Of a stretch of DNA of 64,000 nt, positions 4,151-46,676 are shown piece after piece. The stretch comes from Bacillota bacterium. GTDB lineage: Bacteria > Bacillota > Limnochordia > Darwinibacteriales > JAAYFS01. Made by a program: the position numbers and the translations under genes. Positions within the stretch are counted from its first letter, which is position 1. Each line of letters starts with the position of its first letter. The notes below the pieces were generated by a model. That model was not told the DNA's origin and made no database searches. It saw only the letters and a list, made by a program, of their open reading frames with translations. The stretch lies in NCBI GenBank assembly GCA_012728115.1, contig JAAYFS010000055.1, positions 11,779 through 75,778 of the forward strand. The letters are read 5' to 3'.

Positions 4151-4721
4151 TTACGATAACTGAACACTATTTTTCACAAAATCCGCAATCAAAAAGTACT
4201 CCTCATCGATTAGAAGAAGAGATCAAAGGACAGAGATTGAGAAAGGAACCAAGATCTTGCTTTCTGCTCTTGAACTTAATCCTGGTGAAACTGTTTTGGA
4301 TCTTGGGTGCGGTTATGGACCGATCGGGATTGTAGCTGCTAAAATGGTTGGTCCTCAAGGTAAGGTATACATGGTGGATATCAACGAACGAGCGGTAGAA
4401 TTAGCAAAACAAAATGCAACAATTAATGGCGTGGATAATGTTGATATTCGTGTAAATGACGGTTTGAACGGGTTAAATATTGATTTCGACTGTATAATTA
4501 CTAACCCGCCAATTAGGGCTGGAAAACAAGTGATATATAAAATGGTTGATGATGCCTACGAACGTTTAAAAGCTGAAGGGCGCTTGATCATGGTTATTCG
4601 CATGAAACAAGGAGCAAAAAGCATGGAACAAAAGCTCCAAGAACTATTTGATGAGGTACATACCATAGAGAGAAAATCGGGTTATCGCGTCCTATTAGCA
4701 CAAAAAATTACCTCCTCTTAG
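4147..4721 (+). pseudogene. RsmC/YbxB-like class I SAM-dependent methyltransferase split across two frames (frameshift or internal deletion)
   Basis: The N-terminal piece [17 protein letters not shown]...GQRL (frame 1) and the C-terminal piece LELNPGETVLDLGCGYG...ITNPP (frame 3, TTG at 4257) overlap. The expected TDxGVFS segment between them is missing. Confidence 0.5.
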
Positions 4722-4779
4722 CGCTAGTTCTAATGACTACTGTAGCTTGAATTATAGGAGGAACTGTGGAGGATAAAAA

Positions 4780-5826: not shown

Positions 5827-5835
5827 TAACCATGA

Positions 5836-5864
5836 TTGCCTAACCTAAGACTCTATGATATTAT
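5836..5864 (+). promoter_or_regulatory. candidate sigma-A promoter of the ADP-kinase-like gene
   Basis: TTGCCT (5836-5841), a 17-bp spacer and an extended -10 TGaTATTAT (5856-5864). Confidence 0.4.
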
Positions 5865-5922
5865 ATTTTAAGAGTTTATCGTTTATTATTGGAGGTATTA
5901 TCTAACTGGAGGTATTTTCTAA

Positions 5923-7359
5923 ATGGAAGCAGTCTGGGAACAAAGGGTTAAAGAAGCAGTAAAGCAAAAAATCACTGGTAGAATTTTTTCCGCATTTAAT
6001 ACTAATATAGATGTAATTGTTCATTTGAACAAACAAATTATTAAACAATGGATAGACTCTACAGAAGGCTGTACTGTAGAGGCTTTAAATTCTATAGACG
6101 TAGATAACCTCGAAGTAGTAAGAGATAAATTAGATTTCTTAGCAGTTATTAAAGATTGTTTAGGGAAGGGTAAGAGCTTCTACATTGTACTAGAAGATCT
6201 CTCTTTATTCGATTGGCTGGAGGAGAATACTCCTGCACGCAGAGAAGAAATGGGTGGACAAGCAGGAATTATCGCCAACCAAATGGCTGCTCTCGATGCT
6301 ACATCGGTAGTATATACCTCGCTTCTGTCACAAAAGCAAGCTAATCTTTTCTTCCCTGAAGTATTGACACCAGTGATTGATGATAATGGCTTAAAACTTA
6401 ATCCAGTAATCGAAAGTGCAAACAAAGAAGATAGTACCAAGATTAACTGGATCTTTGAATATGCAAAAGGCATAGAATTTGACTTTGGTGGCGAAAAAGT
6501 AATCACCCCGAGAGCAAATCGCGTAATTCTCTCAACTCGTCCTGAAGGTGCAGTAATGACCTTTAAAGGACAGGTAGCTGACCACTTACCAGAGTTAGGG
6601 GAAAAGATCGATGTTGCTTTTATGGCTGGCTATCACTACTGTCCAACCGAAGAAAAAGCAATGCAAGAATACCTCACTGATTGTATTGAGGGGTTAAGAA
6701 AATTAAAACAAAACAATTCTAATCTGCATTTACACTTCGAATATGTGCCAATGAAGGATCAAGAAGCAGAAAAGAAAATGCTAACAGCAGTAGCTCAAGA
6801 AATTCAATCCTTCGGTATTAACGAAAACGAGATCAAAAGAGTACTAGCTGGATTTGGTTTCCAAAAAGAAGCGGACGAGATCGAGAAAGACGAAAGAGCA
6901 TTCTCCTTATACGAAGGGGCCTTAAGGATAATGGAGACTCTTGGTTTCGAACGAATCCAAGTTCATAATCTAGGTTACTATGTCTTAGTGCTCAAAAAAC
7001 CTTATCCAGTAGCCTTAGATCAGGTGCGAGCTTCTTGTCTCTATGCGTCAGCAGTAAATGCCATTAAGGCTAAGTACGGCGGATACGTAAAAGCAGAACA
7101 AGTAAAAGAAGCAGCTTCATTTGGTCTATCCACTATCGGAATCGAACAAATAAAAGGTTTTGAGGCTGAAATGAAGAGAAAAGGTATAGTTGTTCCTGAT
7201 AACTTCCTGGAAGAAGGAATAATAGAGTACGACAACCATTACCTAATGATTGTTCCTGCCCATGTAGTCCCCAATCCTATTAGTACTGTAGGAATGGGTG
7301 CTACCATCTCATCTTCTTCGTATGCTTGCGAATTCAGCTACGTTAGTCAAATGCGATAA
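5923..7359 (+). CDS. ADP-dependent glucokinase/phosphofructokinase-family (archaeal-type ribokinase-superfamily) homolog
   Basis: Motifs present: the NxNxD motif FNTNID, MGGQAGIIANQM, KQANLFF, and C-terminal PISTVGMGATISSSSYACEFS at the position of the GXGD motif. An intrinsic terminator follows. Confidence 0.55.
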   Translation: MEAVWEQRVKEAVKQKITGRIFSAFNTNIDVIVHLNKQIIKQWIDSTEGCTVEALNSIDVDNLEVVRDKLDFLAVIKDCLGKGKSFYIVLEDLSLFDWLEENTPARREEMGGQAGIIANQMAALDATSVVYTSLLSQKQANLFFPEVLTPVIDDNGLKLNPVIESANKEDSTKINWIFEYAKGIEFDFGGEKVITPRANRVILSTRPEGAVMTFKGQVADHLPELGEKIDVAFMAGYHYCPTEEKAMQEYLTDCIEGLRKLKQNNSNLHLHFEYVPMKDQEAEKKMLTAVAQEIQSFGINENEIKRVLAGFGFQKEADEIEKDERAFSLYEGALRIMETLGFERIQVHNLGYYVLVLKKPYPVALDQVRASCLYASAVNAIKAKYGGYVKAEQVKEAASFGLSTIGIEQIKGFEAEMKRKGIVVPDNFLEEGIIEYDNHYLMIVPAHVVPNPISTVGMGATISSSSYACEFSYVSQMR

Positions 7360-7367
7360 AGTTGGAA

Positions 7368-7396
7368 ACTGCGGGATGTCTCGCAGTTTTCTTTTG
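7368..7396 (+). terminator. intrinsic terminator after the ADP-kinase-like gene
   Basis: ACTGCGG-GATGTC-TCGCAGT followed by TTTTCTTTT. Confidence 0.65.
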
Positions 7397-7483
7397 TAGT
7401 TTGGAAAGGAATATTCACAAAGATTACCGAATTACATCAATGAGTTAAGTGAAAAGGGTTATCTTCCGTGGAGGGATGCCAAA

Positions 7484-8431
7484 GTGTTAAATGAACTGAA
7501 GATATTCTCGGGTAGAGCCCATCCTGAACTTGCCCGCGAGATTTGTTCAGTATTGCAGGTGGAAATAGGCCGTTCGGAAATTATAAAATTCACAAATGAT
7601 AATTCTTTTGTTCGGATTTATGAAAGTGTACGTGAAGCAGATGTTTACGTTGTTCAACCATCATGCGAACCTGTGAATGATGGGATTGTAGAACTTCTTA
7701 TCATGGTTGATGCCCTTCGGAGAGCATCGGTAAAACGAATAACTGCAGTTCTACCCTACTTTCCGTACGGAAGATCAGATAAAAAGGACCAACCGCGAAT
7801 TTCGATCACTGCAAGATTAATGGCAGATCTTCTGGAAGTCGCTGGTGTGGATAGAGTACTTTCTGTAGATTTACATGCACCCCAAATTCAGGGTTTCTTC
7901 AAGATCCCTGTAGACCATTTGACAGCAATTCCGATTTTTGCCGCTTATTTTCAAGAAAAGAATCTTTCCGATCTAGTAATAGTTGCTCCAGATGCTGGCA
8001 GAGCGAAAATGGCACGTCAATATGCCAGAAGACTTAACTGTCCGATGGCGATCATTGATAAGCGCAGAGTTGCTAACGAGGAAAAAGTGGTTATGGAAAG
8101 CGTAATGGGGGATGTCGAAGGTAAACGTTGTCTATTAGTCGATGATGAAATAAGCTCTGGTGCTTCGATAGTTGCTGCAGCAAATACCCTAGAGAAATTT
8201 GGTGCAGCAGAAATATATGCTGCGATTACGCACCCGATTCTTTCAGGAATGGCGCCACAGCGAATAGCATCGTCACCGATTAAGGAATTAGTGGTAACTA
8301 ATTCGGTTCCCGTACCCGAAGAGAAACGGAATGGGAAAATCAAAGTACTTAGCATTGCACCTTTACTAGGGGAAGCTATTTGGTGTATTCATAACGGGGT
8401 TTCAGTCAGTAAGGTTTTTGAGAAGGAATAA
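7484..8431 (+). CDS. prs: ribose-phosphate pyrophosphokinase
   Basis: Full-length PRPP synthetase pattern: FSGRAHPELA...DLHAPQIQGFF...PRT domain. Confidence 0.9.
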   Translation: MLNELKIFSGRAHPELAREICSVLQVEIGRSEIIKFTNDNSFVRIYESVREADVYVVQPSCEPVNDGIVELLIMVDALRRASVKRITAVLPYFPYGRSDKKDQPRISITARLMADLLEVAGVDRVLSVDLHAPQIQGFFKIPVDHLTAIPIFAAYFQEKNLSDLVIVAPDAGRAKMARQYARRLNCPMAIIDKRRVANEEKVVMESVMGDVEGKRCLLVDDEISSGASIVAAANTLEKFGAAEIYAAITHPILSGMAPQRIASSPIKELVVTNSVPVPEEKRNGKIKVLSIAPLLGEAIWCIHNGVSVSKVFEKE

Positions 8432-8439
8432 AGAGAGGG

Positions 8440-8865
8440 ATGAAGAGCATGAGAGCACTGATACTACATACCGAAGAACCAAAGACAATTAAATGGGCTA
8501 ATGCATTGAGAGATGCTTTAGCAACCCATAATTGCAAAGTGGATCTAGTTGTCGCCAAAGAAAACCATTCCACTCCGATAGGTACTTCCCAGTATCGCTT
8601 GATCATAATGTTATCAAATTTTTCTGGTCTATTTAAGCCAAAACTACCTAATGCGGTTGATGATGCTCTCAAGCAATGTTCTCGTGTCCAGGGTAAGAGA
8701 GGAGCGGCATTCCTACCTGCAAAGCTTGGTTCTACTAAGGCCTTGAAAAACTTAATGGAAAAAATGGAACAACAAGGAATATTTGTCGAAGATTTTGGAG
8801 CCATTCGAAACCAAGTACAAGTCGAGAAAATTGCTGAAAGGCTGATGAATCTCCTAAATCCATAA
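8440..8865 (+). CDS. hypothetical protein, possibly with a flavodoxin-like fold
   Basis: A 141-aa ORF with a proper gene context and a downstream hairpin. No diagnostic motif was recognised. Confidence 0.4.
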   Translation: MKSMRALILHTEEPKTIKWANALRDALATHNCKVDLVVAKENHSTPIGTSQYRLIIMLSNFSGLFKPKLPNAVDDALKQCSRVQGKRGAAFLPAKLGSTKALKNLMEKMEQQGIFVEDFGAIRNQVQVEKIAERLMNLLNP

Positions 8866-8869
8866 ACGA

Positions 8870-8896
8870 AGAACCGCCCTCATAGAGAGCGGTTCT
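8870..8896 (-). terminator. hairpin between convergent genes, likely the nadE terminator
   Basis: AGAACCGC-N11-GCGGTTCT. The U-rich tail is on the minus-strand side only. Confidence 0.4.
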
Positions 8897-8905
8897 CACT
8901 TAAAC

Positions 8906-9685
8906 TTAAGACCGTTTGTATGCAGTAGGTACAGCTCGCTTATGGGCTGTAACTTTGTGGAGATGTTCGATCCTTTCCCGATCTTTGTCTGGGATCGGTT
9001 CTCCTTGTAAATATTTATCAATCATTTCATAGGTGGTTCCGATTTCAGCCTCATCAGTTTGCCCCTCCCAAAGGCCAGCAGAGGGGACTTTAGCTAAGAT
9101 TTCATCTGGGATGTTTAAAGCTTCAGCCAGCTTATATACCTCACCCTTGGTAAAATCGGCAAGGGGCAGAATATCGCAACCACCGTCACCGTACTTAGTA
9201 AAGTAGCCTGTATAAAGTTCGGCTGCGTTGTCGGTACCTACGACTAAGTAGTTTAAGAAATTAGCAACTGCATAAATAACAGACATACGTAAACGAGCAC
9301 GCAAATTGGCATCGGTCAGTTTAAGGATACTATCCTTAGTTGTAAATAACCCGATCTTTTTTAACTCATTGGATATTCCAGTTAAGATACTGGTGTGATC
9401 TTCGCTTAAATCGATTTCGAAACTAGTTAGACCGATTTTTTCGGCAACATCCCTTGCGTCAAGCGCATCTTGCGGATTAGAAAAGATGGGTATAATTACA
9501 CCAAGAGAGTGGTTCGGAAAGGCTTGTTTAATAAGGGCTGCAACCACAGCAGAATCGATTCCGCCACTGAGACCGACAACCAAACCTTGGCAATTTGCTT
9601 CTTTTACTCGATCTTGTAACCAATTAACTATATGTGGGATTTCGTTTGTGATATCCATTAATAATTCCTCCTGAAATAAATTCAA
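8906..9685 (-). CDS. nadE: NH3-dependent NAD+ synthetase
   Basis: The PP-loop motif GLSGGIDSAVV is present. The 259-aa size fits. Confidence 0.85.
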   Translation of the reverse strand: MNLFQEELLMDITNEIPHIVNWLQDRVKEANCQGLVVGLSGGIDSAVVAALIKQAFPNHSLGVIIPIFSNPQDALDARDVAEKIGLTSFEIDLSEDHTSILTGISNELKKIGLFTTKDSILKLTDANLRARLRMSVIYAVANFLNYLVVGTDNAAELYTGYFTKYGDGGCDILPLADFTKGEVYKLAEALNIPDEILAKVPSAGLWEGQTDEAEIGTTYEMIDKYLQGEPIPDKDRERIEHLHKVTAHKRAVPTAYKRS

Positions 9686-10908: not shown

Positions 10909-11536
10909 TCTAGATGAAACACTATTACGCATCGATTTCGATAGATTTATGCACCAATATCTCGAGGCTATTTCCCGATATTTTTCCAATTATCTTGAGC
11001 CTAAGATTTTTGTGCAAGAATTACTCAATGGCGTGGAAGTTATGCTCAAAACCAATGATCCACAGCGAACTATTATTGAAGTATTTGCCGATTATTTTTT
11101 CTCAAGCACAGGTTTAGATCCCAATCTGATGCAGAAGTTTACGCAATTCTATCTCGATGAATTTCCCAAGCTTGCTCATGTTTCGCAAGAGATACCTGAA
11201 GCGAAAGAAGTCATTAAAACCGCTTTCGATAAAGGGTATAAAGTGGTGATCGCTACTAATCCTGTTTTCCCATCTGAAGCAATTCATGAACGACTAAGAT
11301 GGGCTAAGGTATCGCATTTTGATTATGATTTGATTACCTCAGGAGATAATATGCACAGTTGTAAACCACATCTGACTTATTATCAAGAAATTGCCCAAAT
11401 TATCGATGTTCCTCCGGAACAATGTTTAATGGTGGGCGACGATATTGAAAATGATGGTCCGGCAGCAAAAATTGGCATGAAAACATTCCTCCTTACAAAC
11501 GGACGCAAACTAATCGATGTAGTAAGTATTCTCTAA
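10889..11536 (+). CDS. HAD-superfamily hydrolase
   Basis: The N-terminal FDLDETLL matches the DxDxT motif. The 215-aa size fits. Confidence 0.7.
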   Translation: MKAVLFDLDETLLRIDFDRFMHQYLEAISRYFSNYLEPKIFVQELLNGVEVMLKTNDPQRTIIEVFADYFFSSTGLDPNLMQKFTQFYLDEFPKLAHVSQEIPEAKEVIKTAFDKGYKVVIATNPVFPSEAIHERLRWAKVSHFDYDLITSGDNMHSCKPHLTYYQEIAQIIDVPPEQCLMVGDDIENDGPAAKIGMKTFLLTNGRKLIDVVSIL

Positions 11537-30927: not shown

Positions 30928-30953
30928 TTGTAGCAGTGAGAGGAGGTCGCAAT

Positions 30954-33784
<2,831 letters not shown>

Positions 33785-38057: not shown

Positions 38058-38408
38058 TGGTGGAGGTGAGCGGAGTTGCACCGCTGTCCGCAAGTGAAAT
38101 TACATTGGCCTCTCCGAGCGCAGCTACAATTTTAGAATCTCGCCAAAACACACTCCTTGTAGCTGGATTATGTTCTAGCCAGCCCATTACATTCCCCCAG
38201 AGTGCTGGGCGATTCCTCTGAAGTAACCTGCTAAGTTGACACCAGGTTTATTCCCGCAGGTAAAGAACAAACTGGCGTAACTGCTATCTTAAGCAGCTAA
38301 AGCGTAATTATTATCTGCAATTATTTTAGGTCCCAAATTTAACGAGGTTTGGGGATCTCGGCTCGCTTCCAATGCTCTTCCTACCTACGTCGAAACTAAT
38401 TCACCCCC
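38058..38408 (-). ncRNA. ssrA: transfer-messenger RNA (tmRNA)
   Basis: The minus strand reads 5' GGGGGTGAATTAGTTTCGACG ... tag ORF GCAGATAATAATTACGCTTTAGCTGCTTAA (ADNNYALAA*) ... T-arm AGCGG-TGCAACT-CCGCT, then CACCTCCACCA 3'. Length is about 351 nt. Confidence 0.8.
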
Positions 38409-38449
38409 AAGTGTTTAACACAATTGGGTTCACTAAACGTGCATTAAAT

Positions 38450-38478
38450 ATAATATCATATTTTGGAGTTAGCGTCAA
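38450..38478 (-). promoter_or_regulatory. sigma-A promoter of ssrA
   Basis: On the minus strand, TTGACG (38473-38478), a 17-bp spacer and an extended -10 TGaTATTAT (38450-38458). Confidence 0.55.
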
Positions 38479-38765
38479 TGTTGAAACTCATTTGGCTCTA
38501 GATTTCACCATTGTTTATCATGGTTGATTTTATAAGCATCACAGGAAAATTACAAGGAATTATTTATTTCAAAACCAGCGAATGTAAAACAAGGAATTTT
38601 AAGATGTTAATTCTTAACTTCTTTCCTTATATTTAAAGGGAAAGAAGTGTATGTTTCGAACAGAGATAATTAAAAAGACACGTTTAATCATCTGGTAATG
38701 GTAAGGACATTAAATTTGAGGATTGCAAGGCGTAACTGTGGAAAATAATCCGTTCCGTAGGGGGA

Positions 38766-40340
38766 ATGATGATGAGAAAACCGATCGTATTGGTGGTAAT
38801 GGACGGTATTGGGAAGGGCAAAGGGGATTTTAGTGATGCTGTTAGTTTAGCCAATACACCCACTCTCGATATGTTAATGACTAATTATCCAAACATCTTA
38901 ATTAAGGCACATGGTACTGCTGTCGGGTTACCTTCTGATGCTGATATGGGAAACAGCGAAGTAGGGCATAACGCGTTGGGATGCGGACAAATCTATTCTC
39001 AAGGAGCGAAGTTAGTAAATGAAAGTATTGAAAGAGGAGAAATCTTTGAATCTGATGTTTGGCATGAAGTGATCTCAAATTGTCTTAACAATAATTCCAT
39101 CTTACATTTTATCGGACTTTTATCTGATGGGAATGTTCACTCGAATATCAATCACTTAAAGTCGATGATCATCAAAGCCAAAGAAAGCAATGTAACCAAA
39201 GTCAGGGTTCATATTCTACTCGATGGTCGTGATGTTCCAGCTACTTCTGCTCTTGAATACGTTGATGATCTAGAAAGCCTGCTTGCAGAACTTAATTGCG
39301 ATAACTTCGATGCTCGCATAGCCTCTGGTGGAGGTAGGATGAAAATTACGATGGATAGATATCAAGCAAACTGGGATATGGTAAGACTAGGTTGGGAAAC
39401 GCATGTGCTTGGTGAGGGTAGACAGTTTACTTCTGCTCTTGAGGCTATCAAGTCGTATCGCGAGGAATTTAACGTGATCGATCAAGATCTTCCGCCTTTT
39501 GTGATCGCTGAAAATGGAAATCCTGTTGGAAGAATGAATGATGGCGATAGCGTAATCTTTTTTAATTTCCGTGGTGATCGGGCAATTGAAATAAGTATTG
39601 CCTTCGACTATCAAGATTTTGATAAATTTGATCGGAAGTATGTTCCAAAGGTGGTTTACGCAGGGATGCTTCAGTATGATGGAGACATCAATGTTCCCAA
39701 GAAATATCTTGTTAGTCCGCCAAACATCAAAAACACCTTGTCAGAGCTATTGGTGGAACATAGGATAAAGCAATATGCTGTATCGGAGACCCAAAAGTAT
39801 GGGCATATGACCTACTTTTGGAATGGAAATAGGAGTGGAAAGTTTAGCGATGAGCTGGAAGTGTTTTATGAAGTACCATCGGATCAGGTGCCTTTTGAAC
39901 AGCGTCCTTGGATGAAAGCAGCAGAAATAACTGATAAAGTAATTGAAGCGATTGAATCGGGAGAATACGGCTTCATCCGTTGTAATTATCCAAACGGTGA
40001 TATGGTAGGGCATACTGGCAACATTGATGCGACAATTATCGGTGTAGAAGCAGTTGACTTAGGTTTGGCAAGAATACTAGAGGCTGTCACCAAAAAAGAT
40101 GCAATCCTAATTGTAACAGCTGATCATGGCAATGCGGATGATATGGTAGAGATTGATAAATCGGGGAATCTGCAAATGAAAACCGCTCATTCGCTGAACC
40201 CCGTACCTTTTATTATCTTTGACAAAAACAAGGCATACAGTATTAAACCAGGTAATTATGGACTCGCGAACGTAGCTCCCACCATCGCTCGCTTATTCAA
40301 TCTAGACATACCAAAGCATTGGGAGGAGAGTATGGTATAG
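38766..40340 (+). CDS. second, divergent 2,3-bisphosphoglycerate-independent phosphoglycerate mutase paralog
   Basis: The 524-aa protein has iPGM motifs (VLVVMDGIG, NSEVGH, LLDGRDV, ADHGNADDM). It is far more divergent than the operon copy at 30954..32498. Confidence 0.8.
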   Translation: MMMRKPIVLVVMDGIGKGKGDFSDAVSLANTPTLDMLMTNYPNILIKAHGTAVGLPSDADMGNSEVGHNALGCGQIYSQGAKLVNESIERGEIFESDVWHEVISNCLNNNSILHFIGLLSDGNVHSNINHLKSMIIKAKESNVTKVRVHILLDGRDVPATSALEYVDDLESLLAELNCDNFDARIASGGGRMKITMDRYQANWDMVRLGWETHVLGEGRQFTSALEAIKSYREEFNVIDQDLPPFVIAENGNPVGRMNDGDSVIFFNFRGDRAIEISIAFDYQDFDKFDRKYVPKVVYAGMLQYDGDINVPKKYLVSPPNIKNTLSELLVEHRIKQYAVSETQKYGHMTYFWNGNRSGKFSDELEVFYEVPSDQVPFEQRPWMKAAEITDKVIEAIESGEYGFIRCNYPNGDMVGHTGNIDATIIGVEAVDLGLARILEAVTKKDAILIVTADHGNADDMVEIDKSGNLQMKTAHSLNPVPFIIFDKNKAYSIKPGNYGLANVAPTIARLFNLDIPKHWEESMV

Positions 40341-41071
40341 GGGTTGGGTTTTTTAGCAAGCATACAAGCTAGCGGCGAGATCTGCCGTTACCCAGGGCAA
40401 AGCTGCACCAGATAACATTTCGCTCTTACGGCGTGATTAAGTTAATGATTGAGGTGGGGAATAGGGAAAATTTTTGAATCACCGCTAAGCCTCGAAAAAA
40501 TCGTTTGTGCAAGGAAGGCTTGTTATTAGACTAGATAGAGAAGTTGCATAGGAAAGTTACAGGTATCTTGATTGATAGGCTAACGTTATTGCTAATTAAT
40601 GGAAGATAGTTGGACAAAAGGTTTTATTTTGAAAGAGAACGTAGGCGCGGAATTTGCGAATAATACCAAATAGGTGTTGAACCAATGTGAAAAACTGGGG
40701 TTAATAGAACTCAACCATCTATCATTGTTAAAAGGAATAAAATGTGGATACGTCCTTTTACACAGACTATGGTGATGGTAAGACGCTTCTGGGGTAATAG
40801 CGGGGACGATTAATGATCAAATCAAGATCATATACTATGATGGTATTAATAACTCACCCATGATGGAAGTCCAGATGATCTGGAGGGTATTTTCCCCTTT
40901 AGCGGTCAGTGCGAACCACAAATGAACATAAAATCCTGGGAGGTTCCCACATAGCTCTAGAAGCCCATTACAGGGTCTTACAAGGAAAAATGTTAAATAA
41001 ATAGAAATAAAAAATGCGGTTCGCACACACTGCTTTTGAAACAAGCCTATGGAAAGGGTTTGTGCACCCTA

Positions 41072-41236
41072 CGGTCGCACCCTGTGCGGGTGCGTGGATT
41101 GAAACCGTCACTTAAATGTAACAGCCAAATCTCCTGCACTGTCGCACCCTGTGCGGGTGCGTAGATTGAAACTCTTTGCTTCGCGCATAATGTTTTCGCC
41201 TTCTTTGTCGTACCTTGTGCGGGTGAGCGGATTTTA
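41072..41236 (+). CRISPR. orphan CRISPR mini-array of 3 repeats and 2 spacers; 32-nt type I-C-like repeat GTCGCACCCTGTGCGGGTGCGTGGATTGAAAC
   Basis: Repeats lie at 41072-41103 (consensus), 41139-41170 (1 mismatch) and 41205-41236 (degenerate terminal copy). Spacers are 35 and 34 nt. The ...ATTGAAAC 3' end is typical of I-C/I-B repeats. No cas genes are in the window. Confidence 0.65.
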
Positions 41237-41657
41237 ATCTTAAGAAAACAATGTTTTAAATCTGAACCCTACTTTTTAGAACTATTTTATCTGAAATTCG
41301 CTAACAGCGAGTTTTTTTAAAAAAGGACTTTTTACTACGTTTTTAATCAAGGACTAGTACTCTTATTCCATCCCCTCTCTACTATTAAGAAATGAATACT
41401 ACCCTATTATCCCATGCATACTCTAACTGCATTCAATTTTTTATATATTAACAATGCCCCTACTGATTGGTCGGATGTCGCATCTTATTTAAGATGTTAT
41501 CCAAACTAATATCGCCTTGACCCAAAGAATCAGCGGTATTATCTTAAAAAGTGGGTGCGCAACCACCGGTTGCGACATTTCCAAGTGCAATATATAGAAT
41601 AGCAACCAGGGTTTTTGATAGGATAAAGCTAATTATTGAAGCAAAAGAGGTGGTAAA

Positions 41658-42248
41658 ATGAAATTGGATGAAAAAATCCTTTACTGTCGTAAAAGAGCGG
41701 GGTTATCGCAAGAGGAATTAGGTGAGAAAATAGGAGTATCTCGTCAAGCAATCAGCAAATGGGAGACAGGGGAATCTGTTCCAGAATTAGGAAAAATTAT
41801 ACTTTTGGCAGATATTTTTCAAGTAACAACAGATTGGTTGTTAAAGGATGGAGAAGGGGAGGAAGTTAGAGATTCAAAAGAAGCTCAGGCTGTGAATATA
41901 ACTCCTAATTGGGTAGAGTCCATTCCTGGTGTAATAGGCAATTTAATTAAAAAATATGGTTGGTTGTTCGGTGTATATTTGGCGATCTCAGGAGCAATAT
42001 CTATTGGTTTTGGAATTGCTGGTAAATTGATGTTCCGAAGTTTTATGCAAAACTCTCCTTTTTCAAATGAAACAACCTTCTTTTTCGATGCTCCAGGGTT
42101 TTCTGCCAGTAACTCTTTCGGCTTTGGAGTTAGTTCGGATCCATCCTCTTATATAACTGGATTCGTGATCATACTGGGAACCATTTTTCTTGTAGGTGGT
42201 ATAATTCTGGCTATCGTTCTAAAAAGAAAAGGGGTAGAGAAGGTATAA
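41658..42248 (+). CDS. membrane-anchored XRE-family HTH transcriptional regulator
   Basis: The N-terminal HTH_3 (LSQEELGEKIGVSRQAISKWETGE) is followed by two predicted TM helices (WLFGVYLAISGAISIGFGIAG and ITGFVIILGTIFLVGGIILAIVL). Confidence 0.7.
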   Translation: MKLDEKILYCRKRAGLSQEELGEKIGVSRQAISKWETGESVPELGKIILLADIFQVTTDWLLKDGEGEEVRDSKEAQAVNITPNWVESIPGVIGNLIKKYGWLFGVYLAISGAISIGFGIAGKLMFRSFMQNSPFSNETTFFFDAPGFSASNSFGFGVSSDPSSYITGFVIILGTIFLVGGIILAIVLKRKGVEKV

Positions 42249-42453
42249 AAAAGAAAAAATTATGGTAAAAGACCGCTACAGTTCTGATTTGCCTCTCCAA
42301 ATGCTAGGTTTTTCTGTCTAACATTTTGGGTGCAGATCATCACGCAGCGGTCGTTTTAATGTCCCTTGATTCTTAATCGACTTTAACGGGTCAGGCAACT
42401 CCGAATGACTCCTTCAACGCCAACATGCTCGAACAACGCAATCGGAGTGCTTC

Positions 42454-43539
42454 CTAAAATAGTAGAAGTAGATCGAATAGATCGAACATATAGTTAAACA
42501 ATTGAATTTCGGTTTCGGAAATACCAATCGAACTTTCATCAAAAATGAAAACCAGGTCAATTCTAGCGATCTCTTGAATTATTTCCGCTCGTTGCTCACG
42601 CGTGGTTAGCTCGCCTCGCGTTACTATCATTGCTAGGCGCTCTGACATCACAAAACCAAAAGAAAAAGCGTCGGTTTCTAAAATAAATAGTATTTTATCT
42701 GGTATCAGAGCTGCTTCGTCAAATAAATTTTCCATAATTACGATCGGATAACTTACCACGCCGTCGGAAGCTAGTGCAATAACAAAGATTGGTTCGGTTT
42801 CCATCACATCTTCATTATCGAGAACGGCAAGCAATTGTTCGAAAATATCCATCTGATGGATAGATATTATTTGAAAACCTTCTGGTAATGGTAAGGATGA
42901 GATGTTTGCCCAAGGTACAAGACTGCTAAACTCTTCCGTAGTAATTCTCGTTATGGTTGAACCAAGGGGAAATTCGGGAATACTAGCTAAATCAAGCTTT
43001 GAAATATCTGGATCATAATCTACGACAATCGTTTCTCGCACATAGATAATATTACCTTCATCATCGTACTGATAGAATTTTAGAATTAAGCCGCTTTCTA
43101 AATCGACGTATAATGTATTCACTAACCTATTATCCCTTTTATGGTAGAGTTCGATAACGATACAGTCTCGTTCTGCTACCTGTTGGAAATCAACTATTCT
43201 GAACTCATAGTTTGATAGAAGAAGACTAAGGTTGTCGCTTGTTCTTCGAAACTGTACTTCCTCCTTCAAATTATATTCCAATTGGAATTGTTGAAATGGG
43301 ATGATGGAATCTTCTCCATCTGAACCAGTTTGAAGAACGTAAATATTATCAACATAGTAGATCTCCGTTGTGGTAGCATACGTTTCATCTAAGTAAACAG
43401 TGGTAATTTGCTTAAAATATACGTTTTCGAACTTAGGTTTCGCAATAGGAAGCCAATAATCAATCTTTGCCGAAACCATCATGGAAAAACTTAGCAATGC
43501 AAGTACGCAGACCAACATACTGAACGCTATTCTTTTCAT
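42454..43539 (-). CDS. secreted protein of unknown function, paralog A of a tandem family (possible LolA/RseB-like fold)
   Basis: A signal peptide in a 361-aa protein. It shares blocks with the next two genes: NYEFRIVDFQQVAERDCIVIELYHKRDN, VDYDPDIS, PEGFQ and C-terminal TREQRAEIIQEIARIDLV. Confidence 0.6.
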   Translation of the reverse strand: MKRIAFSMLVCVLALLSFSMMVSAKIDYWLPIAKPKFENVYFKQITTVYLDETYATTTEIYYVDNIYVLQTGSDGEDSIIPFQQFQLEYNLKEEVQFRRTSDNLSLLLSNYEFRIVDFQQVAERDCIVIELYHKRDNRLVNTLYVDLESGLILKFYQYDDEGNIIYVRETIVVDYDPDISKLDLASIPEFPLGSTITRITTEEFSSLVPWANISSLPLPEGFQIISIHQMDIFEQLLAVLDNEDVMETEPIFVIALASDGVVSYPIVIMENLFDEAALIPDKILFILETDAFSFGFVMSERLAMIVTRGELTTREQRAEIIQEIARIDLVFIFDESSIGISETEIQLFNYMFDLFDLLLLF

Positions 43540-43689
43540 AGGCCTTTTCTGCCACCTTTCTTTTACTTTTCAAGCTTGCATCCATTTTGGGATTGACAAC
43601 CAAGAATCGCTGGTTTTGGCTACGGACATCAAAAAATGTCACTATAGCCTTAGATACGTTGAGTCCAATTAAAGACTTGGAACAGCTCT

Positions 43690-44730
43690 TTATTCCCTGG
43701 TTAAATCAAGAACCAGCTCAATATTAGTTAAAGCCTTTATAATCTCTATTCTTTCTTCGTGAGATATCACATCGCTGGTAATTGCTATAGCCATATCTTG
43801 ACCTTCATTTAAAACAATTGCAATGGTAGTAGCAGAAAGTTTTTCAACAATAGCAATTATTGCTTCTGGTAACAATTCAGCAACACTTTCTAAGAGCGAA
43901 TCGAACATTATTACGATATCTATGGTTTCTAGGCCGTCAGAGATTATAATGGTAAAACCAGTCGATTGATAGGTCTGCTGAGGTGATCTCGAAGAAGCAT
44001 CCTGAAAATCCAAAACCTCTGTTTCGTATATTGCATGAAAGAAATCTACTGCTCGAAACCCTTCTGGCGATAGTAAGGAGTCAAGATCCACCCATGGCAG
44101 GCGTTCGAGGAGTTCGGTTTTAGATATGCGTTCGAAATGAACTACCGTGTCATTGGTGGAAGTATTATCCAGATTGATATGAGAAACATCTGGATCGTAA
44201 TCTACACTTACTGCTTCGTAGGACTCGACCAATTTTCCATCCTCGTCGTAATAGTATTCGTTGAGACTTATTCCAGTTTTAAGATCGACTACATATTTTA
44301 TTTTCAAAGAATTTTGTTTTTTATCATGCAGCTCGATCACCACGCAGTCTCGAGCTAATACTTGTTGAAAACCAACTATTCGCAACTCATAGTTTGAAAA
44401 AAGGACTTCAAGATATTCGCTTAAACGCCATGTAGCGGTCTGAAGTTCTGGGTCGTATTCCTGTATTCTCTGGGCTGAGTCTGTGCTAAATAAACCTTCT
44501 GCGGTTTCCGTTATTTCAACAAACGTGTTATCAAAAAGATAGTATTCAACTATTGATGTATAAACCTCATCCGCATACTCGACATACTTTTGCTTTAGAT
44601 ATAATTTTTCAAAATTGTTTTCAATAAAAGGGAATCCTGGTGGTAGGGCATCAGATATCATTATTGACTGACTGACCAAAAACAATAAGCAAAAACATAA
44701 ACAGGAAATCGTTTTTTCATTTCGTCTCAA
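43690..44730 (-). CDS. secreted protein of unknown function, paralog B
   Basis: A signal peptide in a 346-aa protein. Shared blocks: NYELRIVGFQQVLARDCVVIELHDKKQN, VDYDPDVS, PEGFR, HEERIEIIKALTNIELV. Confidence 0.6.
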   Translation of the reverse strand: MRRNEKTISCLCFCLLFLVSQSIMISDALPPGFPFIENNFEKLYLKQKYVEYADEVYTSIVEYYLFDNTFVEITETAEGLFSTDSAQRIQEYDPELQTATWRLSEYLEVLFSNYELRIVGFQQVLARDCVVIELHDKKQNSLKIKYVVDLKTGISLNEYYYDEDGKLVESYEAVSVDYDPDVSHINLDNTSTNDTVVHFERISKTELLERLPWVDLDSLLSPEGFRAVDFFHAIYETEVLDFQDASSRSPQQTYQSTGFTIIISDGLETIDIVIMFDSLLESVAELLPEAIIAIVEKLSATTIAIVLNEGQDMAIAITSDVISHEERIEIIKALTNIELVLDLTRE

Positions 44731-44781
44731 TCCGCCTTATATTAAATTTTAATCCTTTAGAAAACCATTAGGCGAATCGCC

Positions 44782-45839
44782 CTAAAATAAATATTGTAAC
44801 CAAAAGTCGGAAGAGTTAACATTATCAATGTTGGTTAACGACTGGATGACCTCTGTTCGTTGTTCGTGTGTCATAAAATCGCCTTCGATCATGATCACAA
44901 TAGGAGTTGGGTCAAAAACTATGCCTATCGTTGAGTTTTGGTATTCAGCAATTGCAAGTATTGTTTCGTCGCTAAATTCAATACTATCTTCTGTGAGATA
45001 AGGGACTTGGATTTGAATCGTGAATAGATTCAAACCATCGGACACAATAATGATTAGGAAAAGATCTTGGTGTTCATCTTTGGTTTCCGTAATTGACTCA
45101 GTAATATATTCTGATTCGATGTCAAGAGCTACAGAAATAATCTCGGCGAAGCCTATAACTTGAAAGCCTTCTGGCAGAGGCAAGGACGTAAGATTTATCC
45201 ATGGAACAAGCTCAGCGAACTCTTCGGCGGTATAAATTAAACCGTCGAACTCAACACCGAAATTTGTAATACCATCTGCTTCAAGTACAGATAAATTGGG
45301 ATCGTAGTCAATTTCCAGTGTTTCCATACTAGCAATAATATTACCTTCGCTATCATATCGGTACTCCTTCAGAATATGGTTCGTCTCTATATCAACAATC
45401 ACTGTAAACACCAATGAATTGTCTTTTTTCTTGTAGACATCCATTTCGATACAGTCGCGTCCTGCAACTTCTTGGAAACCTACCATTCTAACTTCGTAGT
45501 TTGATAAAAAGACTTTTTTGCTTCTGTTGATCTTATTACTTTTTCCATAAAACCGAAATTGCTCTGCAATCTAAATGTTTCGTCCTCTACCCATTCGTCA
45601 AATTGTCGAGCCTTGAATTGAGTAATTATTGTATCCTCACCGAAGTAAAAGTCCGCCTCAAGTTTGAAAACTTCTGGTCCGTGATCAGTAAAGACTACTT
45701 TGGCATAAATGTTATCCACCTTTTTTTCAAGAAACATAAGTATAGGATACGCGAAAGTTATAGGCTCTGCTAGCGCAATGCTCGATACGATAAACACTAT
45801 CGCTAGACAAATCATAGAACTAGTTAACACTTTTTTCAT
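44782..45839 (-). pseudogene. paralog C of the same family, disrupted by a frameshift
   Basis: The N-terminal piece (45480..45839, with signal peptide) and the C-terminal piece (44782..45570, an open frame without ATG that contains FLSNYEVRMVGFQEVAGRDC) overlap in different frames. Together they are about 360 aa, like the intact paralogs. Confidence 0.5.
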
Positions 45840-46220
45840 TCATGAAGACCGCCTTTCATTGTATTTTATGGTTCAAAAAATATGTTGCATCTTTAAAAAA
45901 GTTAGCCAAAAAAATAAACAAAAACGGACATAAGTTTCTTGTTCTGCAAATACTAATTTTGACATCAATTTAATACAATACTTAAATTATTTATTCTAAA
46001 ATCCTTTACCAAATTGGACAAGAATCAATTAAAAAATAAAGGAGGACCCCATATTGATGTTGCCCCCTAATTCCGTGTCTGGATTTGAGGGTTCGCATCA
46101 TATCTGAGTATCCTCCTAAATCAACGCTATTTTTTACATGACTTTAATACCGTTCTCAATCTTAATCATTATTCCAAACTAAACTCAAATCAAAGCCAAA
46201 CCAAAACTAAAAACCCAACT

Positions 46221-46676
46221 TTAACGCTTACTTAAAGCTCTTTCAATTCGCCGTGCTGCATCTTTCTTGGCGATCGCGTCTCTCTTATCATATTTACGTT
46301 TACCCTTAGCTACCGCTAGTTCAATCTTACATTTCCCTCTTTTGAAATAAAGTCTCAAGGGAATCAAGGTATAACCTTGCTCCTGAGTTCTGCCTACCAA
46401 GCGATTAATTTCCCGCTTATGTAGTAAAAGTTTGCGGACACGTAAAGGGTCATGGTTAAATCGATTGCCTTGCTCGTAAGGGCTGATATGCATCCCGTGA
46501 AGAAAAACTTCGCCATCTTTAATTCTGGCAAAACTATCGCTAATATTAACTTTCCCTAAACGCAAGGATTTTACCTCTGTTCCTTGCAGAGCAATCCCAG
46601 CTTCGATAGTATCTTCGATAAAGTAATCATGTCGTGCTTTTCGATTATGAGTAATAATCTTAATTTCTTCCACCAT
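46221..46676 (-). CDS. smpB: SsrA-binding protein
   Basis: [30 protein letters not shown] is present in a 151-aa protein. Confidence 0.9.

What the first reader, a model, noticed from the sequence alone, without database searches (positions are those of the whole stretch)
41072..41236. Orphan three-repeat CRISPR mini-array with type I-C-like repeats and no cas genes
The 32-nt repeat GTCGCACCCTGTGCGGGTGCGTGGATTGAAAC ends in the ...GGATTGAAAC 3' handle typical of type I-C/I-B repeats. It occurs as a consensus copy, a copy with 1 mismatch and a degenerate terminal copy. Spacers are 35 and 34 nt. No cas gene is present anywhere in the 64-kb window. Upstream lies 0.7 kb of non-coding, decayed-looking DNA (40341..41071) that could be a remnant of a cas1-cas2-leader region. 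The array sits inside the smpB-ssrA insert next to an XRE regulator. It is either a relic of a lost system or a trans-served mini-array.
Basis: partly seen in the sequence, partly recalled or inferred. Interest (0 to 1): 0.55.

Follow-up and report, generated by a model that had tools for sequence, protein, structure and literature searches.

The report
Stranded type I-C CRISPR mini-array
This is a real two-spacer type I-C CRISPR array with an intact leader whose neighbouring cas genes have been deleted; its spacers still differ between nearly identical strains and match viruses, so it is an ordinary kind of isolated array that has probably stayed in use.

Summary
Three 32-nt repeats lie at 41074-41105, 41141-41172 and 41207-41238 (degenerate), with spacers of 35 and 34 nt. 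No cas gene of any type occurs in the 64-kb window.

It is a true type I-C array. The exact repeat occurs in large arrays beside cas7c-cas4-cas1-cas2 in two Bacteroidales MAGs. The 165 nt upstream carry the inverted-repeat motif shared by type I-C leaders from four phyla, at the conserved distance.

A faint but significant cas1 3' pseudogene trace (40502-40795, four in-frame stops) and a possible cas2 stop-proximal trace (40874-40902) precede the leader.

The new result is that four samples of strains 98-99.7% identical in the flanks carry four different array contents. One alternative first spacer matches a phage tape-measure gene 35/35 with the type I-C TTC PAM. Another matches an integrative element 23/23.

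So spacers were renewed long after the local cas genes decayed. That most likely needs type I-C proteins acting in trans, which I could not verify.

This is a new member of a known kind (isolated or orphaned arrays). Interest is modest.

The parts
40502..40795 (+). cas1 (Cas1c) 3'-terminal pseudogene trace. It corresponds to about residues 237-330 of a 341-343-aa Cas1c and spans 98 codons with 4 in-frame stops.
   Evidence: A self-built Cas1c HMM (122 sequences) has its best hit in the whole window here: 8.2 bits at nt 40502-40645, HMM positions 237-280. None of 326 real window segments (max 4.5) and none of 1000 dinucleotide shuffles (max 7.4) reach that score. Smith-Waterman scores against two Cas1c proteins exceed all 300 shuffles, and the alignment extends to residue 330 at nt 40795. 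Identity is 28%, against 52-61% among intact Cas1c from different phyla. Pfam and NCBIfam did not detect it.
40874..40902 (+). Possible cas2 stop-proximal trace: GAT GAT CTG GAG GGT ... TAG reads DDLEG..FPL*, with one frameshift.
   Evidence: It aligns by position and sequence with the Cas2 C-termini DLEGPLIF* (B. mycoides), DPEGPLIL* (D. vulgaris) and NPEGILII* (L005). Each of those ends 2-20 nt before the leader motif. It is not statistically supported: a Cas2 HMM and Smith-Waterman scoring are at background. About 260 nt of cas2 must have been deleted.
40909..41073 (+). Type I-C leader (165 nt). It has inverted-repeat arms GTGCGAACC (40909-40917) and GGTTCCCAC (40942-40950, 1 mismatch), a third copy GGTTCGCAC (41018-41026), and an A/T-rich stretch between them.
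   Evidence: The TGCGAAYC motif lies 164-165 nt upstream of repeat 1 in the window and in three arrays of L004 and L005. The same inverted repeat lies at -160 to -177 in leaders of D. vulgaris, B. mycoides, Paenibacillus and Peptoclostridium. The leader is identical in strains L017 and L019 apart from sequencing-type indels.
40978..41007 (+). Possible weak sigma-70-like promoter in the leader: TTACAA, 18-nt spacer, TAGAAA.
   Evidence: Read by eye, with 9 of 12 consensus positions. The promoter scan did not call it because the -10 hexamer lacks the final T. This is inference only.
41074..41105 (+). Repeat 1: consensus, identical to the Bacteroidales type I-C repeat.
   Evidence: It folds into a 7-bp stem and 5-nt loop with an 11-nt 3' tail, -13.1 kcal/mol.
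41106..41140 (+). Spacer 1 (35 nt, leader-proximal). It differs between strains.
   Evidence: It is replaced by unrelated sequence in L017 and L019. No protospacer was found for the window allele, and there is no self-target in the window.
41141..41172 (+). Repeat 2 (1 mismatch, G23A).
   Evidence: It has the same hairpin as repeat 1. L017 carries a different single mismatch (G21A) at this repeat.
41173..41206 (+). Spacer 2 (34 nt, trailer-end 'anchor' spacer).
   Evidence: It is identical in the window, L017 and L019, and is absent or replaced in L028. No protospacer was found.
41207..41238 (+). Repeat 3: degenerate terminal repeat with 7 of 32 mismatches and a lost hairpin.
   Evidence: 71% identity over the 35-nt family unit. 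Its fold is no better than shuffles, z = 0.34. A degenerate copy at the leader-distal end fixes the array's orientation as + strand.

Best explanation
**What it is.** This is a genuine type I-C CRISPR leader-plus-array module left stranded in a housekeeping region of an uncultured Bacillota (Firmicutes) bacterium from anaerobic digesters. The adjacent cas operon was deleted.

**What remains upstream**
- A heavily decayed 3' third of cas1.
- Perhaps the last ~10 codons of cas2.
- A complete 165-nt leader after those.

**How it most likely works (inferred)**
- The array is transcribed from the leader, or by read-through from the co-oriented iPGM gene.
- Cas5c cuts the pre-crRNA at the base of the repeat hairpin. 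This would give two crRNAs, each with an 11-nt 5' handle.
- The crRNAs are loaded into a type I-C Cascade encoded elsewhere, either on another contig of the genome or on a mobile element.
- Cas1-Cas2-Cas4 acting in trans recognise the conserved leader motifs and insert new TTC-flanked spacers at repeat 1.
- Repeat-to-repeat recombination deletes older spacers, which keeps the array at about two. The trailer spacer is partly protected because its downstream repeat is degenerate.

**Shown**
- Array, leader and repeat family.
- Absence of cas genes in the 64-kb window.
- The cas1 trace.
- Strain-to-strain spacer replacement.
- An exact phage match with a TTC PAM.

**Inferred**
- Transcription and crRNA processing.
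- The existence of trans-acting Cas proteins.
- The balance between spacer insertion and deletion.
For: **Repeat family**
- The exact 32-nt repeat was found in the genome collection only in two Bacteroidales MAGs. There it occurs as 75+17 and 6+6 exact copies directly downstream of cas7c-cas4-cas1-cas2.
- It is about 75% identical to the pDV1 Dvulg array.
- Its hairpin plus 11-nt tail are typical of this family.
- Spacer lengths of 34 and 35 nt are the modal values of those arrays.

**Leader**
- The conserved inverted repeat sits at the conserved distance from repeat 1.
- Leader-motif spacing is reported to be critical for integration in I-C, I-E and I-F systems (bioRxiv 10.1101/2023.05.26.542337).

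**Local cas loss**
- There is no cas gene in the window.
- The cas1 trace is the top Cas1c-profile hit in the window. It lies on the array's strand, just upstream of the leader.
- It has 4 in-frame stops and 28% identity, against 52-61% among intact Cas1c proteins.

**Turnover after the loss**
- L017 is 99.7% identical over 21.5 kb and L019 is 98.1% (a noisy assembly). Both share the same decayed upstream region, leader, spacer 2 and terminal repeat.
- Each has a different first spacer, and the variants of repeats 1 and 2 also differ between assemblies.
- L028 (99.5%) has yet another spacer, next to a truncated terminal repeat.

**The variable spacers are real immune memories**
- The L017 spacer matches an IMG/VR siphovirus-like contig 35/35, inside its tape-measure gene. 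It is preceded by TTC, a trinucleotide with a frequency of 0.9% in that contig. TTC is the type I-C PAM (PMC7913775).
- The L028 spacer matches an integrase-bearing element 23/23, and the match ends exactly at the repeat boundary.

**Differential decay**
- Repeats 1 and 2 match the consensus at 32/32 and 31/32.
- The adjacent cas1 DNA has decayed almost beyond recognition.
- This argues that the array has been maintained or renewed since the loss.

**Precedent.** Isolated arrays that interfere and adapt in trans are documented (PMC13142298; PMC5491264).
Against: - **No cognate cas genes found.** None could be shown for this organism. The top 120 relatives of the matching Cas1c are all Bacteroidota where named. 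The rest of the MAG could not be searched.
- **Repeat 1 differs from repeat 2 in every strain.** The difference is 1 nt in the window and 4 nt in L017. Canonical insertion duplicates repeat 1, so the present arrays are not the simple product of one fresh insertion.
- **Array length.** The three arrays seen complete all have exactly two spacers. That also fits arrays that only shrink.
- **The window's own spacers have no detectable target**.
- **The cas1 trace is weak.** It scores only 8.2 bits, and standard libraries miss it. With pairwise scoring against real window segments it ranks only second or tied first.
- **GC mismatch.** The matched phage has 50% GC against 40% in the host. The spacer may have been captured in another host and imported.
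- **No promoter call.** The scan called no promoter in the leader.
- **Assembly quality.** L019 is a low-coverage, indel-rich assembly, and L028 shows only 27 nt upstream of the repeat.
Confidence: 0.58

Rival explanations
1. Inert relic. The cas operon is gone from the whole genome, and nothing uses or updates the array. The differences between strains arise only from different repeat-to-repeat deletions of a formerly longer, polymorphic array inherited from the cas-bearing ancestor.
For: - No cas gene lies within 64 kb, and none could be linked to this MAG.
- Repeat 1 is never an exact copy of repeat 2. Chimeric or variant repeats are what recombinational deletion produces.
- All three completely seen arrays are equally short.
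- The terminal repeat is degenerate, and in L028 it is also truncated.
- Orphaned arrays left by excision of a cas operon are a recognised class.
Against: - It needs at least four independent deletion histories, all converging on 1-2 spacers, within lineages only about 0.3% diverged.
- The shared cas1 trace is extremely decayed (4 stops, 28% identity). Yet repeats 1-2 are essentially perfect, the leader motif spacing is intact, and two variable spacers still match mobile elements exactly, one with a correct PAM. Spacers as old as the pseudogene should have drifted as well.
Confidence: 0.25
2. Imported cassettes. The array is not updated in place. Repeat-spacer units, or the whole leader-array segment, are swapped in by homologous recombination from other strains or other taxa that carry complete type I-C systems with the same repeat.
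For: - The identical 32-nt repeat is shared with Bacteroidales MAGs, so this type I-C lineage is horizontally mobile.
- Two repeat-loop variants (TGTGC and AGCAC) coexist at the locus in different strains.
- The phage matched by the L017 spacer has 50% GC against 40% in the host.
- Horizontal spread of isolated arrays has been reported in Pseudomonas aeruginosa (PMC13142298).
Against: - The homology arms would be only the leader and 32-nt repeats.
- The flanks show no mosaic of extra SNPs around the array. Outside it there is only 1 SNP in 730 nt upstream, plus 1 SNP and 1 indel downstream.
- None of about 100 spacers in the Bacteroidales arrays matches the locus variants or the phage.
Confidence: 0.12
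3. A mobile-element or viral mini-array, or a solitary-repeat decoy. It would be carried by a prophage or island between smpB and ssrA and used in inter-element conflict or as an RNA anti-CRISPR.
For: The array is tiny and has no cas genes. It lies between smpB and ssrA (tmRNA genes are classic island integration sites), next to an XRE-type gene.
Against: - There is no integrase, phage or plasmid gene nearby. The neighbours are housekeeping genes, and there is no GC anomaly.
- The locus lies on the 5' side of ssrA, whereas islands integrate at its 3' end.
- A full chromosomal-type leader and a cas1 pseudogene trace are present.
- The spacers that could be traced target a phage and an integrative element, as in ordinary host immunity.
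Confidence: 0.03
4. A chance tandem repeat or an assembly artefact, for example a chimeric join with a Bacteroidales array.
For: The window comes from a metagenome-assembled genome, and the exact repeat was otherwise found only in another phylum.
Against: - The chance expectation for the repeat is zero.
- The same leader-array-flank junctions recur in independent assemblies from different samples, including a k=141 contig whose k-mers span almost the whole array.
- The leader and cas1 trace are homologous to type I-C loci.
Confidence: 0.01

Closest known systems
Canonical type I-C (Dvulg) CRISPR-Cas loci, for example the Nitratidesulfovibrio vulgaris pDV1 locus, the Bacillus mycoides plasmid locus, and the Bacteroidales MAG loci L004 and L005
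   Same: - 32-nt repeat with a 7-bp hairpin and a ...GGATTGAAAC tail.
- Spacers of 33-37 nt.
- Array on the same strand as, and downstream of, cas1-cas2.
- Leader of about 165 nt that begins with the GTGCGAAC...TTCGCAC inverted repeat just after the cas2 stop.
- TTC PAM on a traced protospacer.
   Different: - The cas3-cas5c-cas8c-cas7c-cas4 genes and most of cas1-cas2 are missing, leaving only pseudogene traces.
- The array holds two spacers instead of tens.
Isolated CRISPR arrays used in trans, for example the P. aeruginosa type I-F CR3 array (PMC13142298) and Enterococcus faecalis CRISPR2 (PMC5491264)
   Same: - The array lies away from any cas operon but keeps a leader like that of cas-adjacent arrays.
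- Spacer content varies between closely related strains.
- Traced spacers target mobile elements.
   Different: - In those cases the cognate cas genes are known and function was shown experimentally. Here neither is known.
- Those arrays are thought to have arrived by MGE-mediated translocation. This one carries a cas1 pseudogene trace, which points to in-place loss of the operon.
Orphaned arrays left by excision or decay of the cas operon (the class surveyed by Shmakov et al. [quoted passage not shown]
   Same: No adjacent cas genes, a cas pseudogene remnant, a short array and a degenerate terminal repeat.
   Different: Such arrays are usually viewed as inactive vestiges. Here the repeats are near perfect, the leader is intact, and spacers have been replaced since the loss, with exact and PAM-correct targets.
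Virus- or MGE-borne mini-arrays and solitary repeat units
   Same: Very small size (1-2 spacers) and no cas genes.
   Different: The setting is chromosomal and housekeeping, a full leader is present, and there are no mobile-element genes.

Membership tests
Type I-C CRISPR array | Repeat of about 32 nt belonging to the type I-C repeat family (GTCGC...stem-loop...GCGTGGATTGAAAC/T). | tested here: met
   It is 32/32 identical to the repeats of arrays next to type I-C cas genes. It is about 75% identical to the pDV1 Dvulg array and to many Bacillus and Paenibacillus type I-C arrays.
Type I-C CRISPR array | The repeat RNA forms a stable hairpin followed by an 11-nt single-stranded tail, the expected Cas5c substrate that yields the 5' handle. 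| tested here: met
   Repeats 1 and 2 form a 7-bp stem and 5-nt loop with an 11-nt tail, -13.1 kcal/mol, z = -2.4 to -2.7. Repeat 3 has lost the hairpin. Actual cleavage cannot be tested here.
Type I-C CRISPR array | Regular unique spacers of about 33-37 nt. | tested here: met
   The spacers are 35 and 34 nt. The modal lengths in the related arrays are 34 and 35 nt.
Type I-C CRISPR array | Leader with type I-C-specific motifs at a fixed spacing from repeat 1. | tested here: met
   The GTGCGAAC...TTCGCAC inverted repeat lies at -165, as in seven type I-C leaders from four phyla.
Type I-C CRISPR array | Protospacers flanked by a 5'-TTC PAM. | tested here: inconclusive
   Met for the L017 allele of spacer 1: a 35/35 match preceded by TTC. 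For L028 the inferred PAM is TTT, but the 5' end of that spacer is not on the contig. No protospacer was found for either spacer of the window itself.
Complete type I-C CRISPR-Cas locus | Adjacent cas3-cas5c-cas8c-cas7c-cas4-cas1-cas2 operon. | tested here: not met
   There is no cas gene in the 64-kb window. Only a cas1 3' pseudogene trace and a possible trace of the cas2 end remain.
Isolated (trans-served) array, as opposed to an orphaned array | Cognate cas genes present elsewhere in the same genome. | not testable with these tools
   The rest of the MAG (proteins NLY116xx) cannot be enumerated. The Cas1c homologue search returned only Bacteroidota among its named top hits.
Isolated (trans-served) array, as opposed to an orphaned array | Evidence of activity: new spacers gained, or crRNA produced. 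| tested here: inconclusive
   Four strains have four different array contents, with exact MGE matches. However, repeat 1 differs from repeat 2 in each, so deletion or recombination is not excluded. There are no expression data.
MGE- or virus-borne mini-array | Located inside a prophage, plasmid or island. | tested here: not met
   The neighbours are housekeeping genes (a glycolysis operon, smpB, murI and others). There is no integrase or phage gene and no GC shift.

The most novel reading that the evidence does not exclude
A cas-less chromosomal 'standby' array. In this reading a complete type I-C leader with one or two spacer slots is kept under selection after the host lost its own cas operon. 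A horizontally mobile type I-C system repeatedly rewrites it in trans. The exact same repeat circulates in Bacteroidales of similar habitats, so the system may be shared across phyla. Rapid recombinational loss holds the array at minimal length. Immune memory and immune machinery would then be inherited separately in this population.
Probability: 0.2. Interest if true: 0.55.

Novelty: new member of a known kind. Interest (0 to 1): 0.3.

Why it matters
Arrays without neighbouring cas genes are common and are usually dismissed as fossils. At this locus the age of the cas loss can be compared directly with the age of the spacers. The cas loss is old: the pseudogene is heavily decayed and is the same in all the strains whose contigs reach it. 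The spacers are young: they differ between those strains and match mobile elements exactly, one with the correct PAM.

If trans-acting type I-C proteins are confirmed, this would be a clear natural example of immune memory that stays in use after being uncoupled from its cas genes. It would also be a convenient marker for tracking phage-host dynamics of an uncultured digester Firmicute.

In practical terms, the finding warns against scoring such mini-arrays as dead, or as false positives, in genome annotation.

Tried and rejected
**Synteny and extra strains**
- XRE gene as a synteny anchor: its 59-66% identical homologues lie in unrelated neighbourhoods.
- The single metagenome scan with the XRE protein found only two distant HTH matches.
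- The exact-protein look-up of the 524-aa iPGM ORF failed because of the start codon. The 522-aa version worked. The 523-aa NCBI version and the RseB-like protein are not on record.
- The 542-kb NCBI contig that shares GerM is a pseudo-scaffold of short contigs joined by 100 N. It does not contain the locus.

**Cas remnants**
- Pfam and NCBIfam scans of the stop-to-X frame translations found no Cas domain.
- My first by-eye reading of a cas2 remnant in frame 1 (DQIKIIYY) was dropped. Cas2, Cas4 and Cas7 show no signal above shuffles.

**cas genes elsewhere in the genome**
- A search for Cas1c homologues returned only Bacteroidota among the named hits in the best 120.

**Targets of the window's own spacers**
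- INPHARED phages: nothing.
- PLSDB plasmids: nothing.
- IMG/VR with full-length patterns that tolerate every sixth base: nothing.
- IMG/VR with 20-nt half-spacers: nothing.
- Self-targets in the window: none.
- Spacers of the Bacteroidales arrays do not match the window, L017 or the phage beyond chance.
- The L019 50-nt 'spacer' has no match in L018.

**Expression signals**
- The sigma-70 promoter and terminator scan gave no more sites than shuffles, and no + strand promoter in the leader.

**Other tools**
- Tandem Repeats Finder does not report the array, as expected when the spacers are unique.
Full report

Yes. The repeat finder reports one three-copy direct-repeat family with start-to-start spacings of 67 and 66 nt. 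The 32-nt consensus GTCGCACCCTGTGCGGGTGCGTGGATTGAAAC occurs at 41074-41105 with no mismatch and at 41141-41172 with one. None of 100 shuffles gives such matches. A third copy at 41207-41238 has 7 mismatches.

The spacers are 41106-41140 (35 nt) and 41173-41206 (34 nt).

Repeats 1 and 2 fold into a 7-bp stem and 5-nt loop followed by an 11-nt tail (-13.1 kcal/mol). Repeat 3 has lost the hairpin. A degenerate repeat at one end and a leader at the other fix the orientation as + strand.

**2. Surroundings**

The genes around the array are as follows.
- tmRNA lies at 38058-38408 (-).
- A second iPGM paralogue lies at 38766-40340 (+). It is 39% identical to the copy in the gap-pgk-tpi-gpmI-eno-secG operon at 30936-32498.
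- 40341-41657 has no convincing ORF.
- An XRE-HTH membrane protein lies at 41658-42248 (+).
- Two RseB-like genes and two genes of unknown function follow.
- smpB lies at 46221-46676 (-).

There is no GC anomaly. Fifty-eight non-overlapping ORFs cover 89% of the window, and they are housekeeping genes. PADLOC and Pfam find no core cas gene of any type. tblastn with 14 type I-C Cas proteins finds nothing significant.

The window belongs to an NCBI MAG labelled Firmicutes/Bacillota bacterium, with proteins NLY11673, NLY11674 and NLY11679. The same species appears in anaerobic-digester metagenomes.

**3. Repeat family**

The exact repeat (R allowed at position 23) occurs in the GTDB species-representative collection only in two Bacteroidales MAGs. 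There it forms arrays of 75+17 and 6+6 exact copies. These arrays lie directly downstream of cas7c-cas4-cas1-cas2, or of cas8c-cas7c-...-cas2.

The window array also aligns at about 72-77% identity (87% in one partial match) to arrays on 59 plasmids. These include pDV1 of N. vulgaris Hildenborough, where the match lies downstream of, and co-oriented with, cas3-cas5c-cas8c-cas7c-cas4-cas1c-cas2. A B. mycoides plasmid has the same layout. Spacer lengths in the related arrays peak at 34-35 nt. The type I-C assignment is therefore well supported.

**4. The 0.7 kb upstream**

*(a) Leader.* The octamer TGCGAAYC lies 164-165 nt upstream of repeat 1 in the window (40910) and in three arrays of L004 and L005. 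Extending the comparison shows an inverted repeat, GTGCGAAC, about 27 nt, then (A/G)TTCGCAC. It lies at -160 to -177 in leaders of D. vulgaris, B. mycoides, Paenibacillus and Peptoclostridium, and starts 2-20 nt after the cas2 stop. In several leaders a third TTCGCA copy lies near -55. The window has all three elements, at 40909-40917, 40942-40950 (one mismatch) and 41018-41026. Published work states that type I-C leaders carry subtype-specific motifs 100-200 bp upstream of the repeat, and that their spacing is critical for integration (bioRxiv 10.1101/2023.05.26.542337). So 40909-41073 is an intact type I-C leader.

*(b) cas1.* The evidence is as follows.
- Pfam and NCBIfam see nothing in the frame translations.
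- Two divergent Cas1c proteins give collinear weak tblastn hits in one + strand frame.
- Smith-Waterman scores of 52 and 46 exceed all 300 dinucleotide shuffles, with z = 4.5 and 3.4.
- Against all real 570-nt segments of the window, the region ranks second and tied first.
- A Cas1c HMM that I built from 122 sequences scores 8.2 bits on nt 40502-40645 (HMM positions 237-280). That is the best hit in the whole window. None of 326 real segments (max 4.5) and none of 1000 shuffles (max 7.4) reach it.
- The i-E-value was 0.53 in a run of roughly 8000 target sequences. Rescaled by me to the six frames of this one region, that is about 4e-4.
- The pairwise alignment continues to Cas1 residue 330 at nt 40795.

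The trace spans 98 codons, has four in-frame stops, and is 28% identical to Cas1c. Intact Cas1c proteins from different phyla share 52-61% over the same segment. I accept a cas1 3' pseudogene trace at roughly 80% confidence.

*(c) cas2.* There is no statistical signal. The 29 nt before the leader do read DDLEG..FPL* with one frameshift. They align with the Cas2 C-termini DLEGPLIF*, DPEGPLIL* and NPEGILII*, and the stop codon sits in the expected place. Only about 110 nt separate the cas1 trace from the leader, so about 260 nt of cas2 are missing.

**5. Other strains: the main new result**

Exact-protein look-ups recovered the same locus from independent assemblies.

| Assembly | Source | Identity to window | First spacer | Rest of the array |
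|---|---|---|---|---|
| Window | NCBI MAG (contig of 78,536 bp on record) | n/a | CGTCACTT...GCACT (35 nt) | repeat 1 loop TGTGC; repeat 2 has G23A; spacer 2; degenerate repeat 3 |
| L017 | ENA ERZ18327520, 115-kb k141 contig | 99.7% over 21.5 kb | TTGGGATGATGATGCGGGGGGTGGCAGCGGAGGCA (35 nt) | repeat 1 loop AGCAC; repeat 2 has G21A; spacer 2 and repeat 3 identical |
| L019 | ENA ERZ2648073, low coverage, indel-rich | 98.1% | a third, 50-nt sequence | repeat 1 loop AGCAC; same spacer 2 and repeat 3 |
| L028 | Logan SRR28883302 | 99.5% | not on the contig | contig starts 27 nt upstream of the conserved 3' part of the terminal repeat, with a different spacer end and a truncated repeat |

Between the window and L017, the 730 nt upstream of the array differ by one SNP. 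The 420 nt downstream differ by one SNP and one homopolymer indel. The cas1 trace, the leader and the junction with iPGM are shared by the window, L017 and L019.

**6. Are the variable spacers real?**

- *L017 spacer.* It matches IMG/VR contig UViG_3300028603_000306 at 35 of 35 positions and is immediately preceded by TTC. TTC has a frequency of 0.9% in that contig. 5'-TTC-3' upstream of the protospacer is the type I-C PAM (PMC7913775). The protospacer lies in a tape-measure gene, next to Dit, minor-tail, holin and endolysin genes.
- *L028 spacer.* Its visible 23 nt match UViG_3300012886_000340 exactly, and the match stops precisely where the repeat's GTC begins. That contig encodes two serine integrases and a helicase. 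The inferred PAM there would be TTT, but the 5' end of the spacer is not on the contig.
- *The window's own spacers.* Neither has a detectable target in INPHARED, PLSDB or IMG/VR. Neither has a self-target in the window.

**7. Interpretation**

Loss of the local cas operon predates the divergence of these strains, because the window, L017 and L019 share the same decayed remnant. The spacer differences postdate it.

A spacer as old as a pseudogene with four stops in 98 codons should not still match a contemporary phage at 35 of 35 positions with an intact PAM. The repeats should not be 32/32 and 31/32 either. The simplest reading is that the array has been renewed since the loss, and that needs Cas1-Cas2-Cas4 from somewhere.

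The most likely mechanism is trans service by a type I-C system encoded elsewhere in the genome or on a mobile element. Recombinational deletion would keep the array short. Isolated arrays that interfere and adapt in trans are documented (PMC13142298; PMC5491264).

There are four caveats.
- Repeat 1 is never an exact copy of repeat 2, so the present structures are not the direct product of one canonical insertion.
- All three arrays seen complete have two spacers, which also fits deletion-only decay of a longer polymorphic array.
- Import of cassettes by recombination remains possible. The repeat is shared across phyla, and the matched phage has 50% GC against 40% in the host.
- I could not determine whether the genome has cas genes. 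The best 120 relatives of the matching Cas1c are all Bacteroidota where named. The one long related contig proved to be a pseudo-scaffold.

**8. Comparison and novelty**

The element works like, and by repeat, leader, spacer length and PAM belongs to, the type I-C array family. It fails the 'complete locus' test because it lacks adjacent cas genes.

[quoted passage not shown] 2020, as cited in PMC13142298), fits the pseudogene trace. It is therefore a new member of a known kind.

What is mildly unusual is the combination of an old local cas loss with clearly younger spacers that differ between strains, in an array of only two spacers.

**9. Verdict**

- Observation: confirmed.
- Interpretation: supported, and sharpened.
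- Novelty: ordinary in kind. It is a tidy natural case for testing whether stranded arrays stay in use.
- Interest: 0.3.
- Confidence in the composite best explanation: 0.58. By component this is about 0.97 that it is a true type I-C leader-array, about 0.8 that local cas loss left a cas1 trace, and about 0.55-0.6 that it is or recently was served in trans.

Noticed in passing
window 40909-40917, 40942-40950, 41018-41026; L003 ~11430-11470; L027 ~8424-8470; L025, L026, L004, L005 leaders: Type I-C leaders from four phyla share an inverted repeat: GTGCGAAC, about 27 nt, then (A/G)TTCGCAC. It starts 2-20 nt after the cas2 stop, about 160-177 nt upstream of repeat 1. A third TTCGCA copy often lies near -55. 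It is probably one of the subtype-specific leader motifs mentioned in the literature, but I did not find it described explicitly.
   Followed up: partly
L004/L006 (JAVVQG010000016.1) and L005/L007 (JAAVDV0100000xx) compared with window 41074-41105: The 32-nt repeat is identical between this Bacillota MAG and two Bacteroidales MAGs that have large type I-C arrays. The leaders share only motifs. This suggests that one type I-C lineage has spread between phyla.
   Followed up: partly
L028 1-45 (Logan SRR28883302_326329), equivalent to window ~41194-41238: In this strain the terminal repeat reads GTC-A-GGGTGAGCGGATTTTAAT, so the stem-loop half is deleted. The spacer before it is not spacer 2 but a sequence matching an integrase-bearing IMG/VR contig. 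Only 27 nt are visible, so the rest of that array is unknown.
   Followed up: partly
L019 ~8220-8270 (reverse strand), equivalent to window spacer 1: The third strain's 'spacer 1' is 50 nt long and contains GTGGATT, which resembles the repeat's 3' part. It may be a partial repeat plus a 36-nt spacer, or an artefact of a 0.9x-coverage, indel-rich assembly.
   Followed up: partly
window 30936-32498 and 38766-40340: There are two iPGM (2,3-bisphosphoglycerate-independent phosphoglycerate mutase) paralogues, only 39% identical. One lies in the gap-pgk-tpi-gpmI-eno-secG operon. The other stands alone, directly upstream of the cas1 trace.
   Followed up: partly
window 38058-46676: ssrA (tag peptide ADNNYALAA) and smpB are on the same strand but 7.8 kb apart. 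Between them lie the iPGM paralogue, the array, an XRE-HTH protein with transmembrane segments, two RseB/MucB-like proteins and two small proteins of unknown function. AcrB and MarR genes lie on the 3' side of ssrA.
   Followed up: no
L017 12888-13295 and 13684-15890, compared with window 41658-44730: In the L017 assembly the XRE gene and the RseB-like genes are called as several shorter pieces (29+86 aa, and 93+261+323 aa), although the DNA is 99.7% identical. This could reflect frameshifts or assembly errors, or real pseudogenisation in that strain.
   Followed up: no
L032 (GCA_900198705.1, FZPS01000134.1, 542,586 bp): This long NCBI 'contig' is a chain of short contigs joined by runs of 100 N. 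Two pieces are 99.2-99.9% identical to the window, so it is a bin of the same species but useless for synteny.
   Followed up: yes
L025 (Peptoclostridium acidaminophilum megaplasmid NZ_CP007453.1) 3464-9200: A type I-C array of about 70 repeats (GTCGCACCCCGTGCGGGTGCGTGAATTGAAAC) follows cas7c directly, with its leader motif at -165. An IS110 transposase lies upstream, and no cas4, cas1 or cas2 is listed in the PLSDB gene table, which omits pseudogenes. This may be another rearranged type I-C locus.
   Followed up: no
L018 (IMGVR_UViG_3300028603_000306): The phage matched by the L017 spacer has 50% GC against about 40% for the host contigs. That is an unusually large host-virus difference if this bacterium is its host.
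   Followed up: no
window-wide (alignment A4): PADLOC models mad2, mad3 and mad8, AriA, RmrA and Csa3/CARF hit window ORFs at E-values from 1e-6 to 1e-43. Pfam shows these ORFs to be ABC-transporter and HTH or sugar-binding regulator proteins, so I take the hits to be generic domain similarities and not defence systems.
   Followed up: partly
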